A stretch of 51,506 nucleotides of DNA from a virus, in the UHGV virus genome UHGV-0335272; one strand, written 5' to 3'. Under the pieces are notes generated by a model. It had not been told where the DNA came from. It was given only the letters and a program-made list of their open reading frames with translations, and ran no database searches. Below are positions 19,941-21,989 of this stretch, piece after piece; position 1 is the stretch's first letter; the number at the start of each line of letters is the position of its first letter. A program made the position numbers and the translations under genes.

Positions 19941-20265
19941 GGTGACCTCCTGTATGACGGTACTGCTGTACCACTTCCAGTTTGTTGTAGAGTGCGTCCA
20001 GCTTGGCCTCGATGACCGTCTGGCCACGGATGTAATCCTCGCGGCGGACGTAGTTCAGCGGTAAATCCGCCTTAAACCGCATAAATTCTTTTTCCAGCTC
20101 GCCCCAGTTGGAGGCGGACTGTTGCAGCGACTGCTCAAGGGAGGCGAACCGCGCCGCCTGACGCTCCTCCGCTTTACTGAAAAGCCACTTGGCCATACCG
20201 CCGACAAAGCTCATGAAGGTGATGAGAAAGCCCACCACCGTCCAGAATTCAACCTGCAACGTCAT
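19933..20265 (-). CDS. Small membrane protein (Mu gp25-like position)
   Basis: ORF trimmed to ATG preceded by GGAGGG; one hydrophobic helix (FWTVVGFLITFMSFVGG). Confidence 0.5.
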   Translation of the reverse strand: MTLQVEFWTVVGFLITFMSFVGGMAKWLFSKAEERQAARFASLEQSLQQSASNWGELEKEFMRFKADLPLNYVRREDYIRGQTVIEAKLDALYNKLEVVQQYRHTGGHHG

Positions 20266-20912
20266 TTCTGTAATCCCTCCCGTTCGTCCAGCAGCCCGTT
20301 TATCTGGCCGCGCCAGATGCGGCACTGCTTCGCGTTGTCGATGATGTTGGCGAGGACGTCACGCTGGGAGACGCCTGAGTCGCGTAGCCAGGCGTCAGCG
20401 GCTTCAGGTTGCCCGGACGCTGTGCCAGTGCCGGCGCCAGCGGCGGCAGTTGTGTCTGAATGGCCGCTGCCGACGGATGCGTTGTCATATCCGAGTGCGG
20501 CGTTGTACTGGCGCACGAAACCGCGAGTAAACACGCACTCAATGGGATGGCTCTTGCCTTTTTCATCAATCCAGCGCTGTGTGACATCGTTAATTTGCCC
20601 CTGTAGTTGTTTGTTCTGGCTCTCAAGTTGGGCTATTTGCTCAAGGTAGCCAGCCTCGGCCTGTTGCCCGGTGGCAACCTGCACCTGATAACGCTTTGCC
20701 CAGTCACGGAGCGCAGCGTTCTCAAGCGCCGTTTGTTCGGTTTTGTATGTATCAAATGCGGACTGCAGCTCGCTGAGCGCCTTATCGCCAGTGAGCTTCG
20801 CGCTATCATGCCCTGAGCTGTAACCCACCCAGTACACGCCGAGCAGGAAGGCATTGATGAGAATGACGAGCAAAATAGAGCGCCACGGCAATTGTTTAAT
20901 CAGGCTCCACAC
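20262..20912 (-). CDS. i-spanin (Rz-like)
   Basis: GTG start preceded by GGGGAGG; N-terminal TM helix (ILLVILINAFLLGVYW) then coiled-coil periplasmic domain; immediately downstream of endolysin. Confidence 0.7.
   Translation of the reverse strand: MWSLIKQLPWRSILLVILINAFLLGVYWVGYSSGHDSAKLTGDKALSELQSAFDTYKTEQTALENAALRDWAKRYQVQVATGQQAEAGYLEQIAQLESQNKQLQGQINDVTQRWIDEKGKSHPIECVFTRGFVRQYNAALGYDNASVGSGHSDTTAAAGAGTGTASGQPEAADAWLRDSGVSQRDVLANIIDNAKQCRIWRGQINGLLDEREGLQK
20300..20566 (-). CDS. o-spanin (Rz1-like lipoprotein), embedded in +1 frame of the i-spanin gene
   Basis: MKKARAIPLSACLLAVSC lipobox followed by Pro-rich sequence, fully embedded in the Rz-like gene. Confidence 0.6.
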   Translation of the reverse strand: MKKARAIPLSACLLAVSCASTTPHSDMTTHPSAAAIQTQLPPLAPALAQRPGNLKPLTPGYATQASPSVTSSPTSSTTRSSAASGAAR

Positions 20913-21636
20913 AGCTGCTGCCTCCCCATGTGAGATAGCGCGGTGCCAGCTCCCGCAGGATACGCTGCGGGTAGTGGCGGTTCTCACGCCAGCTGGCGGC
21001 GCTGCGCCCGGCATTGACCGTGGCGACATGACCAAACCAGCGGGCGCTGTCCAGCTCTTTCTGCGATGCCAGCCGTTTGTCACGCAGCACCCAGCCCAGA
21101 CCGCCGTTGTACCCCGACAGGGCCATGGCCATCCGCTCACAGTTGTTGGCGGCGCTTACTCGCTCCCATAGCCAGCGGTCATAGCTGACCAGCGCCCGGA
21201 TAGCCCATGCAGGATTGAACGGCTCGCGGCTCTTAAGCCCCGGCATTAGCTGGCTTATCCAGTCGGCAGTGGCGGGCATAAACTGCGCCAGTCCCTGAGC
21301 ACCAACCGGTGAGACTGCATCAGGTCGCCAGCCGCTTTCCTGATGTAGCTGCGCGGCAAAATCGGCCACCGGCGCAGACATCCCCCATTCAAGCCGGGCA
21401 TTACGGATCACATCATCGCGATACTGCAGTGCAGCCTGTGGCGGCTGGGCGGCATGAGCCTGACTAAAGAAACCACCACACCAGAGTAACCAGGCTAACG
21501 TTGCCGTTCCAAAGAGCTGCCACCAGAAGTTGTGTTTACCCGTGCGGGCCTGCCCGTGCCGTGCCAGTTCGATGCCCAGCACCAGCAGGGACAGCACGGC
21601 CCAGACAACCTGAGGCCAGTACATATAGGGGTTCAT
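20896..21636 (-). CDS. Endolysin, lytic transglycosylase (SLT) domain with N-terminal hydrophobic region
   Basis: 246 aa; N-terminal hydrophobic stretches (VVWAVLSLLVLGI, LAWLLWCGGFFSQAHA); C-terminal region consistent with SLT domain. Confidence 0.75.
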   Translation of the reverse strand: MNPYMYWPQVVWAVLSLLVLGIELARHGQARTGKHNFWWQLFGTATLAWLLWCGGFFSQAHAAQPPQAALQYRDDVIRNARLEWGMSAPVADFAAQLHQESGWRPDAVSPVGAQGLAQFMPATADWISQLMPGLKSREPFNPAWAIRALVSYDRWLWERVSAANNCERMAMALSGYNGGLGWVLRDKRLASQKELDSARWFGHVATVNAGRSAASWRENRHYPQRILRELAPRYLTWGGSSCVEPD

Positions 21637-21638
21637 CG

Positions 21639-21989
21639 TTAAAGCCCCGTCGCTACGGCCAGACAGACTGCGGCAACAATCAGCGCACGGCGGATCAACG
21701 CAGCGGAAAAGACCAGGTGAAGGCCAGTCTGGACGGGGAAGCGACCATCAGCCATCAGCCTGTCATCATGCTTCAGGTACTGACCGGGACGGGCTTTGGG
21801 GAACAGCGAACGGTCAAGCCAGTAACCCAGTACGGCAGCCAGCGTGATGAGTGACAGCTTGTAGACAACGACCGGTAACTGCTGGGGCGAGACAATACCG
21901 ATGGTGCCGAGCAGCAGCGCAGCGGTCAGCAGCCAGCCGCTGAGGCGGGGCTTTTTAACAGGGGGAATGAATTTTTTCAGGTTTTTCAT
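21639..21989 (-). CDS. Putative holin (3 predicted TM helices)
   Basis: 116-aa ORF with three hydrophobic helices, first gene of lysis cassette, AAGGAG RBS. Confidence 0.55.
   Translation of the reverse strand: MKNLKKFIPPVKKPRLSGWLLTAALLLGTIGIVSPQQLPVVVYKLSLITLAAVLGYWLDRSLFPKARPGQYLKHDDRLMADGRFPVQTGLHLVFSAALIRRALIVAAVCLAVATGL

What the first reader, a model, noticed from the sequence alone, without database searches (positions are those of the whole stretch)
20262..21989. Lysis cassette: holin-like protein, endolysin with hydrophobic N-terminus, and embedded spanin pair
The o-spanin ORF (lipobox LLAVSC, Pro-rich) lies entirely within the +1 frame of the i-spanin gene, a lambda-like embedded architecture. 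The SLT-domain endolysin begins with two hydrophobic stretches (VVWAVLSLLVLGI and LAWLLWCGGFFSQAHA), suggesting a signal-anchor-release or secreted endolysin rather than a cytoplasmic one, which would imply a pinholin-type mechanism.
Basis: partly seen in the sequence, partly recalled or inferred. Interest (0 to 1): 0.4.

Follow-up and report, generated by a model that had tools for sequence, protein, structure and literature searches.

The report
BcepMu-type prophage lysis cassette
This is an ordinary lysis gene cassette of a Mu-like (BcepMu/B3-type) prophage, correctly spotted; its one unstudied feature is that the cell-wall enzyme's export leader is a fused copy of a widespread 55-residue membrane protein that ends in a signal-peptidase-type site.

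Summary
On the minus strand at 19933-21989 lies a translationally coupled late operon:
- a Holin_2-3 holin;
- a 246-aa SLT lytic transglycosylase;
- an Rz-like i-spanin (GTG 20912);
- an o-spanin lipoprotein embedded in its +1 frame;

The cassette is syntenic and homologous with Burkholderia phage BcepMu gp21-gp28, Pseudomonas phage B3 and Klebsiella phage KP12. Related copies occur in 638 of 5426 complete E. coli genomes.

The embedded ORF is real. It is kept in 69 of 70 related loci, and the codon-position pattern shows selection on the +1 frame.

The endolysin is almost certainly exported, but a classic SAR domain is not the best reading. Its 62-residue leader is a full-length homologue of a family of about 55-aa two-TMD proteins that are mostly free-standing. 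The leader ends in a conserved A-x-A|A junction. At that same junction, homologues carry ordinary signal peptides or a lipobox. I favour signal-peptidase cleavage (about 0.6) over SAR tethering (about 0.25).

The pinholin inference is unsupported. The downstream gene is not a detectable DUF2730 member.

Verdict: a known kind of cassette, with a modestly interesting leader.

The parts
21639..21989 (-). Holin-like membrane protein (116 aa). N-terminus is Lys-rich (MKNLKKFIPPVKKPR). Hydrophobic segments lie at about residues 16-34, 40-58 and 92-116.
   Evidence: Pfam PF13272 Holin_2-3 at E 3.4e-40, 137 bits against a cut-off of 27. phrog_1528 'holin' at E 1.9e-52. Homologue of BcepMu gp21 and B3 ORF24. 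Hydropathy.
20896..21636 (-). Endolysin precursor (246 aa): two-TMD leader plus an SLT-family lytic transglycosylase. The start ATG lies 2 nt after the holin stop.
   Evidence: Pfam SLT at E 2.1e-15 and phrog_669 'endolysin' at E 1.6e-68. 2450 homologues at E<=1e-10. Profile matches Slt70 structures 1SLY/1QSA.
21451..21636 (-). Leader, residues 1-62. It comprises a hydrophobic segment (7-25), a basic loop RHGQARTGKHN (26-36), a second hydrophobic segment (37-57) and the c-region SQAHA. Predicted topology is N-out / loop-in / C-out.
   Evidence: phrog_5479 matched over its full length, residues 5-58 to profile 1-53/53, at E 6.3e-14. Free-standing homologues occur in phages Mica, FoX1-5, BcepB1A and JBD25. 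There are 391 clusters in 1.84e9 representatives, mostly 51-66 aa. K/R occur only in the loop. There is no in-frame internal start between the two segments.
21451..21459 (-). A60-H61-A62, the putative signal peptidase I site. Cleavage is predicted between A62 and A63.
   Evidence: Over 105 distinct leaders of homologues: position -3 is A 87 / S 9 / V 4; position -2 is free (N, R, H, D, S, A, C, Q); position -1 is A 101 / S 2; position +1 is A 101.
20899..21450 (-). Predicted mature periplasmic SLT domain (residues 63-246). The catalytic Glu100 codon is at 21337..21339. Cys166 and Cys242 are invariant.
   Evidence: E100 aligns with the QES motif of E. coli Slt70, Glu478. The invariant columns are listed.
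20262..20912 (-). i-spanin (216 aa, GTG start). It has an N-terminal TMD at about residues 13-31, a coiled-coil periplasmic domain, and Cys126 and Cys197. It overlaps the endolysin's end by 17 nt.
   Evidence: phrog_1403 'Rz-like spanin' at E 1.7e-84. SD GGGGAGG lies 8 nt upstream. Homologues are annotated as Rz/spanin in BcepMu, B3 and E. coli.
20300..20587 (-). o-spanin lipoprotein precursor (95 aa from ATG 20587; alternative ATG 20566), embedded in the +1 frame. The lipobox Cys25 codon is at 20513..20515, and residue +2 is Ala.
   Evidence: The ORF with its lipobox is conserved in 69 of 70 related loci, and is homologous to the annotated BcepMu gp24 Rz1. Third-position diversity of the i-spanin falls from 0.325 to 0.112 in the overlap, with pos1 > pos3 in codons 145-180. 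Its position at 0.50-0.94 L fits the rule for embedded spanins (PMC6139136). Shuffle control.
19933..20265 (-). gp25-like protein (110 aa): an N-terminal TMD (residues 7-25) and a cytoplasmic coiled-coil with an invariant YVRREDY...IEAKLD motif. Its ATG overlaps the i-spanin stop (ATGA). It occupies the slot of the Mu releasin.
   Evidence: phrog_462 at E 2.6e-35. Homologous to BcepMu gp25 and B3 ORF28. No DUF2730 match was found.

Best explanation
This is the late lysis operon of a BcepMu/B3-type transposable (Mu-like) prophage. It is read on the minus strand as one translationally coupled unit.

Proposed sequence of events:
1. The Holin_2-3 protein accumulates in the inner membrane and sets the time of lysis by collapsing the membrane potential. 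This step is inferred.
2. The endolysin does not wait in the cytoplasm. Its 62-residue leader is a fused copy of a small two-TMD protein. The leader inserts with the N-terminus out, the basic loop in and the C-terminus out, so the SLT domain is delivered to the periplasm by the host Sec/YidC machinery. The topology signals are shown in the sequence; the export itself is inferred.
3. Signal peptidase I most likely cuts after Ala62 (AHA|AQPP). This would yield a soluble 184-residue lytic transglycosylase (catalytic Glu100) and a membrane peptide of about 60 residues. This step is inferred, with a probability of about 0.6.
4. After the wall is cut, the i-spanin (inner-membrane anchored) and the o-spanin (an outer-membrane lipoprotein encoded in the +1 frame inside the i-spanin gene) fuse or disrupt the outer membrane. 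This is inferred from homology.
5. The fifth gene encodes a membrane-tethered cytoplasmic coiled-coil protein at the position where Mu has its releasin. It probably modulates endolysin release or timing, but it is not demonstrably the same family.
For: Identity of the cassette:
- Gene-for-gene synteny runs from the holin to TerS/TerL with BcepMu gp21-gp28, B3 ORF24-31, KP12 and E. coli prophages.
- BcepMu gp24 is annotated 'Rz1, out of frame, embedded proline-rich protein'.

Spanins.

Export of the endolysin:
- Basic residues occur only in the loop between the two hydrophobic segments, both in the leader and in about 108 free-standing relatives.
- Homologues at the same junction carry classic Sec signal peptides (MARR..LLLLL..GSDA|AQPP; BcepMu MRVLIAFVVALLGAAAPVAA|Q) or lipoprotein signals (LLSGC; JBD25 LLSAC).
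- Two Cys are invariant in the mature domain.

Cleavage of the leader:
- Positions -3 and -1 are Ala/Ser/Val in 100 and 103 of 105 distinct leaders, while position -2 is free.
- Free-standing family members stop 0-9 residues after GGFF, which is where the fused proteins add SQA-x-A.
- In B3-like phages the module is either fused (B3) or a separate ATGA-coupled ORF followed by an SLT with its own signal (JBD25 and 48 other phage records). A covalent link is therefore not needed.
- The leader's core is swapped among unrelated variants (48% identity between types) while the mature enzyme and the holin stay about 90% identical. It is thus unlikely to be a structural part of the active enzyme.

Catalytic Glu.
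Against: - No signal-peptide predictor could be run, and no experiment exists for this family.
- The second hydrophobic segment is long for a cleaved signal (21 uncharged residues) and only moderately hydrophobic. Its summed Hessa-scale value is about 3.5, close to the value for the published Mu SAR domain (the scale values are from memory). An uncleaved, releasable anchor is therefore not excluded.
- Chamblee et al. (PMC9239132) read the N-termini of the related Pseudomonas SLT endolysins as SAR domains.
- The conserved AxA could be part of a conserved linker rather than a cleavage site.
- A freely secreted, active transglycosylase needs some further control of timing, and none is identified here.
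- The holin function of the Holin_2-3 family is annotation, not experiment.
- The AlphaFold model was too poor to use (mean pLDDT 57).
Confidence: 0.6

Rival explanations
1. SAR-type endolysin. The leader is not cleaved. The enzyme stays tethered and inactive at the periplasmic face of the inner membrane. It is released when the holin (possibly a pinholin) depolarises the membrane, perhaps helped by the gp25-like protein acting as a releasin.
For: - Both leader segments are only marginally hydrophobic, comparable to the Mu gp22 SAR domain.
- PMC9239132 classifies the SLT endolysins of related Pseudomonas Mu-like siphophages as SAR endolysins paired with DUF2730 proteins.
- A TMD plus coiled-coil gene sits in the releasin slot.
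- This reading gives a ready explanation of lysis timing.
Against: - SAR domains are single N-in/C-out segments rich in Gly/Ala/Ser/Thr. Here there are two segments, and the second is 37% G/A/S/T and 32% aromatic, against 59% and 0% for Mu gp22.
- Releasing a hairpin would require moving a loop with 3 Lys/Arg and 2 His across the membrane.
- The junction carries a conserved AxA|A with a free -2 position.
- Homologues use ordinary signal peptides or lipoboxes at the same junction.
- The leader's core is freely exchanged.
- The gp25-like protein shows no detectable homology to DUF2730.
Confidence: 0.25
2. Permanently membrane-anchored transglycosylase. The two-TMD hairpin is a stable anchor and the enzyme works while tethered, like the host's membrane-bound lytic transglycosylases. 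The AxA is merely a linker.
For: - Two hydrophobic segments with a positive-inside loop make a plausible stable hairpin.
- The AlphaFold model shows two helices at 7-25 and 34-53, its best-scoring blocks, although overall confidence is low.
Against: - The linker between the membrane and the catalytic domain is very short.
- Close relatives function with cleavable or lipoprotein signals and no hairpin at all.
- The pattern of variable -2 with fixed -3 and -1 is specific to peptidase sites.
Confidence: 0.07
3. Annotation artefact. The true start lies downstream of the hydrophobic region, and the enzyme is a cytoplasmic, holin-dependent endolysin.
For: - Gene callers disagree on starts in relatives: B3 ORF25 is annotated from an upstream codon, and some database entries are truncated.
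Against: - There is no ATG/GTG/TTG in frame between residue 5 and the mature domain.
- The leader is conserved as protein, with the motifs WPQI, HG.PR.GKHN and LLWCGGFF, in over 100 homologues and in the same frame.
- The ATG sits 2 nt after the holin stop.
Confidence: 0.02

Closest known systems
Burkholderia phage BcepMu lysis cassette gp21-gp25 (AY539836; Summer et al. 2004, paper not held)
   Same: The order and the homology match: Holin_2-3 holin, SLT endolysin, Rz, embedded +1-frame proline-rich Rz1, a TMD protein (gp25), then gp26, TerS and TerL. The upstream gp19 homologue is also present in the window.
   Different: BcepMu gp22 has a plain 20-residue signal peptide (…PVAA|Q) and no two-TMD module. 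Its Rz1 has a second Cys, which the window's o-spanin lacks.
Pseudomonas phage B3 ORF24-ORF28 and B3-like phages such as JBD25
   Same: B3 has the same fused two-segment leader ending GGFFSSAKA|DE. JBD25 carries the same module next to the same kind of SLT and spanins.
   Different: In JBD25 and 48 other Pseudomonas phage records the module is a separate 52-aa ORF, and the SLT has its own signal/lipobox. JBD25 has a true PF10805 (DUF2730) protein in the slot where B3 and the window have the BcepMu-gp25 family. B3 has an extra small ORF26 between the endolysin and Rz.
Phage Mu lysis system: gp22 SAR endolysin, gp23/gp23.1 spanins, gp25 releasin (PMC9239132)
   Same: It is a transposable phage with an exported endolysin, followed by spanins, then a small N-out/C-in TMD protein, then gp26, gp27 and gp28.
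   Different: Mu's endolysin is a muramidase with a single SAR segment, and Mu has no holin. The window has a holin-family gene, an SLT enzyme and a two-segment leader with an AxA site. Its gp25-like protein is not detectably DUF2730.
Phage lambda S-R-Rz/Rz1
   Same: The logic is holin, then endolysin, then spanins. The o-spanin is embedded in the +1 frame of the i-spanin at about 0.5-0.94 of its length (PMC6139136).
   Different: There is no sequence relationship: no Pfam Rz or Rz1 hit was found. Lambda R is cytoplasmic. Lambda Rz1 has a periplasmic Cys, whereas here both periplasmic Cys residues are in the i-spanin.
Secreted endolysin Lys44 of Oenococcus phage fOg44 (cited in PMC2628397; mechanism from my own knowledge)
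   Same: It is an endolysin with a cleavable Sec signal peptide that is exported before lysis. Holin-driven loss of membrane potential is then needed for the wall to become sensitive.
   Different: The host is Gram-positive, the enzyme is unrelated, and the signal peptide is single and ordinary.
phrog_5479, a family of about 55-aa two-TMD proteins (e.g. Burkholderia phage Mica gp63, BcepB1A gp72, Xanthomonas FoX5 gp66)
   Same: The window's leader matches the family over the family's whole length and shares its motifs.
   Different: Family members are mostly free-standing. In Mica and the FoX phages they are not next to lysis genes. Their function is unknown.

Membership tests
Holin_2-3 (Pfam PF13272) | Match to the family HMM above the gathering score | tested here: met
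   137 bits against a cut-off of 27, covering profile 1-106/106. phrog_1528 'holin' at E 1.9e-52.
Holin_2-3 (Pfam PF13272) | Actually forms lethal membrane lesions at a programmed time | not testable with these tools
   I found no experimental paper on this family. The holin role is annotation by position.
SLT lytic transglycosylase (Pfam PF01464, family 1) | HMM match, and the catalytic Glu in the E-S motif | tested here: met
   56.7 bits against a cut-off of 21.3. E100 in HQES aligns with Slt70 RQES, Glu478. It is invariant in 47 homologues.
SAR endolysin | A single N-terminal, weakly hydrophobic, Gly/Ala/Ser/Thr-rich segment with N-in/C-out topology | tested here: not met
   There are two segments separated by a basic loop. 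The second is 37% G/A/S/T and 32% aromatic, against 59% and 0% for Mu gp22. The topology signals point to N-out / loop-in / C-out.
SAR endolysin | Leader not removed by signal peptidase; released from the membrane on depolarisation | not testable with these tools
   The sequence argues against this (conserved AxA|A), but only an experiment can decide.
Sec-exported endolysin with cleavable signal | Small residues at -3 and -1, a free -2, no Pro at +1, and a polar c-region after the hydrophobic core | tested here: met
   The site reads SQAHA|AQPP. Family statistics over 105 leaders are. A dedicated predictor (SignalP) was not available.
Two-component spanin, embedded architecture | i-spanin with an N-terminal TMD and a helical periplasmic domain | tested here: met
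   phrog_1403 at E 1.7e-84. TMD at residues 13-31.
Two-component spanin, embedded architecture | o-spanin with a lipoprotein signal and lipobox Cys, not Asp at +2, and wholly inside the i-spanin in another frame | tested here: met
   The signal is MSHSAGLMKKARAIPLSACLLAVSC|A. The frame is +1, at 0.50-0.94 L. The Cys is conserved in 69 of 70 loci, including B3 and BcepMu.
Two-component spanin, embedded architecture | Evidence that the embedded frame is under selection | tested here: met
   Third-position diversity of the i-spanin falls from 0.325 to 0.112. In codons 145-180, pos1 (the o-spanin wobble position) is 0.18-0.28 against pos3 at 0.06-0.07.
Lambda Rz / Rz1 protein families | Sequence match to the Pfam Rz/Rz1 models | tested here: not met
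   No such hit was found at E<=0.1. The architecture is the same but homology is not detectable.
DUF2730 / Mu gp25 releasin (Pfam PF10805) | Match to the family HMM or profile | tested here: not met
   None of 20 family members matched. hhalign against a Mu gp25 alignment gave probability 1.2%, and 0.3-1% against single sequences. Two homologues are nevertheless named DUF2730 by UniRef.
DUF2730 / Mu gp25 releasin (Pfam PF10805) | [quoted passage not shown] | tested here: met
   110 aa, TMD at residues 7-25, two genes after the endolysin and directly before gp26 and TerS.
phrog_5479 small two-TMD protein family | Full-length match and shared motifs | tested here: met
   E 6.3e-14 over profile 1-53/53. 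tblastn to Mica gp63 gave 6e-12 and to FoX5 gave 2e-9. There are 391 clusters in the representative library.

The most novel reading that the evidence does not exclude
The endolysin gene may encode a two-product precursor. Signal peptidase would separate a functional membrane peptide of about 60 residues from the SLT enzyme. The peptide would be a member of a widespread, unnamed phage family that is otherwise encoded as its own gene or as tandem doublets. It would then act on its own in the inner membrane, for example as a holin partner or antiholin, or as an exclusion factor. The mosaic hypervariability of its core would reflect that separate function.
Probability: 0.3. Interest if true: 0.55.

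Novelty: new member of a known kind. Interest (0 to 1): 0.3.

Why it matters
The cassette itself adds nothing new. It is the BcepMu/B3 type, common in enterobacterial prophages. Public annotation still misses the embedded o-spanin and mislabels neighbouring genes as 'lipoprotein' or 'hypothetical'.

Three points may be useful:
1. These very common prophage endolysins are exported enzymes with a probable peptidase site. This matters for anyone cloning them as antibacterials: full-length constructs carry a membrane hairpin, which the KP12 study noticed only as a low-confidence N-terminal 'second domain' (PMC9902359).
2. The leader gives a first functional handle on an unstudied family of small phage membrane proteins.
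3. The natural series offers a clean comparative system for asking how exported endolysins are kept in check. The series runs from no module, to a separate module, to a fused module. In parallel, the slot after the spanins holds either a DUF2730 protein or the BcepMu-gp25 family. The releasin work on Mu opened this question.

Tried and rejected
- Structure prediction of the endolysin with a 47-sequence alignment gave mean pLDDT 57 and pTM 0.40. I did not use it for fold search. The SLT assignment rests on HMMs and on the Slt70 alignment instead.
- Homology of the gp25-like protein to the Mu releasin was tested three ways and came out negative: Pfam on 20 members, hhalign profile against sequence, and profile against profile.
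- The idea that leader type C is a frameshifted type B was rejected. The DNA between the conserved ends is unrelated, and the other frames are closed.
- The idea that leader type co-varies with the holin, as a partner would, found no support. Holins are 89.5% identical between leader types against 91.7% within types.
- An internal start codon that would remove the first hydrophobic segment does not exist.
- The two-TMD module is not always present in the cassette. Pectobacterium and BcepMu cassettes lack it.
- NCBIfam and PADLOC gave nothing for the lysis genes.
- Literature: the BcepMu genome paper is not held. A 2026 UPEC-endolysin preprint and a Salmonella prophage endolysin paper turned out not to treat this family's leader.
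- The promoter scan found no sigma-70 promoter before the holin and nothing above shuffled expectation. This is as expected for an activator-dependent late promoter, but it shows nothing either way.
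Full report
**What is there**

All genes of the finding lie on the minus strand.

| Gene | Coordinates | Size | Notes |
|---|---|---|---|
| Holin-like | 21639..21989 | 116 aa | |
| Endolysin | 20896..21636 | 246 aa | ATG lies 2 nt after the holin stop |
| i-spanin | 20262..20912 | 216 aa | GTG start 8 nt after GGGGAGG; overlaps the endolysin end by 17 nt |
| o-spanin | 20300..20587 | 95 aa | alternative ATG at 20566; +1 frame, wholly inside the i-spanin |
| gp25-like | 19933..20265 | 110 aa | not in the finding; ATG overlaps the i-spanin stop (ATGA) |

The mechanical i-spanin ORF runs up to 21140. 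The start at 20912 agrees with the 217-aa homologues annotated in KP12 and E. coli. Downstream follow gp26-like, DUF3486/TerS and TerL genes.

**Family assignments**

- Holin: Pfam Holin_2-3 at E 3.4e-40 and phrog_1528 'holin'.
- Endolysin: Pfam SLT at E 2.1e-15 and phrog_669. In a profile search of solved structures, its HQES motif aligns with RQES of E. coli Slt70, so E100 corresponds to the catalytic Glu478. E100 is invariant in 47 homologues.
- i-spanin: phrog_1403 'Rz-like spanin' at E 1.7e-84, with no Pfam Rz hit.
- o-spanin: no family hit, as is usual for these short proteins.

**Where it belongs**

The region is 85-90% identical in DNA to Escherichia phage Phi06_2974 B, Klebsiella phage KP12 and Escherichia phage PhiKM. 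It is more distantly related to Pseudomonas B3-like, Ralstonia and Burkholderia phages. Related copies (80-92% identity) occur in 638 of 5426 complete E. coli genomes.

Gene order and homology match BcepMu gp21 (holin), gp22 (SLT), gp23 (Rz), gp24 ('Rz1, out of frame, embedded proline-rich protein'), gp25, gp26, gp27 and gp28. They also match B3 ORF24-31.

The window as a whole is a BcepMu-type transposable prophage, from about 1 to 32.7 kb. It lies next to pepT-roxA-phoQ-phoP of an enterobacterium that is not E. coli (78% identity), and a second prophage follows.

**Is the embedded spanin real?**

An open alternative frame alone is not rare in this GC-rich gene: 9.7% of codon shuffles give an ATG-ORF of at least 95 aa. 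A lipoprotein signal arises in 0.9% of shuffles, and both together in 0.23%.

- The ORF with its lipobox Cys is present in 69 of 70 related loci. The one exception has a truncated i-spanin.
- It aligns with the Rz1 of B3 and BcepMu through a shared PP..L..RPG...PL.PGYA core.
- Across 51 distinct i-spanin genes, third-position diversity falls from 0.325 upstream to 0.112 in the overlap.
- In codons 145-180 the usual pattern inverts. Position 1, the wobble position of the +1 frame, varies at 0.18-0.28. Position 3, the second position of the +1 frame, varies at only 0.06-0.07. This is the signature of purifying selection on the embedded frame.
- The embedded gene spans 0.50-0.94 of the i-spanin length, the typical placement reported for embedded spanins (PMC6139136).
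- Residue +2 after the lipid Cys is Ala, so outer-membrane sorting is expected (established Lol rule).
- Both periplasmic Cys residues (C126, C197) are in the i-spanin. The mature o-spanin has none.

**The endolysin's N-terminus**

No in-frame start codon exists between residue 5 and the mature domain. The leader is conserved as protein in the same frame in more than 100 homologues, so it is translated. It is not a SAR-like single segment.

Residues 5-58 match phrog_5479, a family of 53-residue proteins of unknown function, over the family's entire length (E 6.3e-14).

tblastn finds free-standing homologues of 52-57 aa in several phages:
- Burkholderia phage Mica gp63 (E 6e-12);
- Xanthomonas phages FoX1-5 (E 2e-9);
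- BcepB1A gp72;
- JBD25 and 48 other Pseudomonas phage records.

A HMMER scan of 1.84 billion cluster representatives finds 391 clusters at E<=1e-3. Of the best 150, 108 are 51-66 aa with the match covering the whole protein, and 23 are 101-125 aa, most of them tandem doublets with two matched stretches.

The family consensus is WPQItwlvL..lgLGi.LAkHGePrtGkhNFW..L......LLY.GGFF. Lys and Arg occur only in the loop. By the positive-inside rule, the loop is therefore cytoplasmic and both ends are periplasmic. The family has no Pfam model.

Free-standing members end 0-9 residues after GGFF. The fused proteins continue with SQA-x-A and then the SLT domain.

**Cleaved or anchored?**

Across 105 distinct leaders of endolysin homologues, the junction reads as follows:

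| Position | Residues |
|---|---|
| -3 | A 87, S 9, V 4 |
| -2 | N 38, R 21, H 20, D 8, S 6, A 5 and others |
| -1 | A 101, S 2 |
| +1 | A 101 |

This is the signal peptidase I pattern, with exactly the expected freedom at -2.

Other points in favour of cleavage:
- At the same junction, other homologues carry quite different leaders. These include classic signal peptides (MARRMCGNGSGSGLLLLLTLLLTGASGSDA|AQPP, and BcepMu MRVLIAFVVALLGAAAPVAA|Q), a lipoprotein signal (LLSGC), and an unrelated two-segment leader ending STKSHA|AEPP.
- In the close pair B3 and JBD25, the module is fused in B3. In JBD25 it is a separate ORF, ATGA-coupled to an SLT that has its own signal (MKRLLTLGLLGLLSACQPAFA).
- Pectobacterium and BcepMu cassettes lack the module altogether.
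- Among 66 enterobacterial loci, three unrelated leader cores alternate: A in 16, B in 31 and C in 19. They are 48% identical between types, while the flanking holin and mature enzyme stay about 90% identical. Type C is not a frameshift of type B.

Together these results say that the leader is an exchangeable export device, not part of the active enzyme. They favour its removal.

Points against:
- The second segment is long for a cleaved signal (21 uncharged residues).
- It is no more hydrophobic than Mu's SAR domain on a Hessa-type scale recalled from memory.
- The Texas A&M group reads related Pseudomonas enzymes as SAR endolysins (PMC9239132).

The T4 RI case shows that such assignments can flip on experiment (PMC8385771). 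I put export at about 0.9, cleavage at about 0.6, SAR-type tethering at about 0.25 and a permanent anchor at about 0.07.

**The holin and the 'pinholin' inference**

The Holin_2-3 protein has a Lys-rich N-terminus and three hydrophobic segments. I found no experimental work on the family.

An exported endolysin needs only depolarisation. It does not tell us the size of the holin's lesions. P1 uses a canonical holin with a SAR endolysin (my own knowledge), and Mu uses none (PMC9239132). The pinholin inference therefore does not follow.

**The fifth gene**

The 110-aa protein has one N-terminal TMD and a cytoplasmic helical domain with an invariant YVRREDY..Q..IEAKLD motif. It is homologous to BcepMu gp25 and B3 ORF28.

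It sits where Mu has the releasin gp25 and where JBD25 has a genuine PF10805 protein. However, none of 20 family members hits PF10805, and hhalign against a Mu gp25 alignment gives 1.2% probability.

It is a positional and architectural analogue, not a demonstrable member. Two homologues do carry the DUF2730 name in UniRef.

**Verdict**

The cassette is a new member of a known kind. The SAR/pinholin reading is weaker than a reading in which a fused small membrane protein serves as a cleavable leader. That leader, and the uncharacterised family it comes from, is the only part that merits follow-up.

Noticed in passing
window 22129..22677 (-), with a terminator-like hairpin at 22132..22115 (-): A 182-aa two-TMD protein with lower GC than its neighbours (0.47 against 0.59). 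It lies between the dam methylase and the holin. It is a homologue of BcepMu gp19. It hits the PADLOC model 'Effector 2TM' (E 7e-5) and phrog_11791, but no Pfam family. It could be a defence-type or lysis-related membrane effector conserved in this phage group.
   Followed up: partly
window 21451..21636 (-) and relatives P0264-P0413: The leader belongs to a large, unnamed family of about 55-aa two-TMD phage/prophage proteins. The family also occurs as tandem doublets of 101-125 aa. In phages Mica and FoX5 the gene lies among early or middle genes, not in the lysis cassette. FoX5 gp66 is mis-annotated 'lytic murein transglycosylase', apparently by similarity to fused leaders.
   Followed up: partly
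L001-L071 (related loci), endolysin 5' ends: The leader core is a recombination mosaic. At least three unrelated variants (A, B, C) occur between conserved ends (MNWPQI… and …LLWCGGFFSQA), on otherwise about 90% identical holin and SLT backgrounds. Salmonella relatives show several further variants.
   Followed up: yes
L075 (JBD25) 2898..3527: The JBD25-type SLT N-terminus MKRLLTLGLLGLLSACQPAFA|TD has both a canonical lipobox (LLSAC) and an AFA site. The literature treats it as a SAR domain (PMC9239132). By sequence, a lipoprotein or a cleaved signal looks at least as likely.
   Followed up: no
window 23082..23852 (+): A DNA adenine methylase (Dam-like) gene is transcribed divergently from the lysis operon. 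It is conserved at this position in KP12 and in E. coli prophages.
   Followed up: no
window 32820..37109 and 37180..51506: The host genes pepT, roxA, phoQ and phoP are only about 78% identical to E. coli. They are followed by an integrase (37180..38469, -) and a second, unrelated prophage that includes a C5 cytosine-methyltransferase-like ORF (48874..50361, +).
   Followed up: partly
L073 (Salmonella Infantis SARB27 contig) 1593..2815: This is a degraded relative of the cassette: holin, SLT with a short leader and the gp25-like gene are present, but no spanin genes lie between them. It abuts P2-like tail genes and the STM4212-4219 region next to lysC.
   Followed up: no
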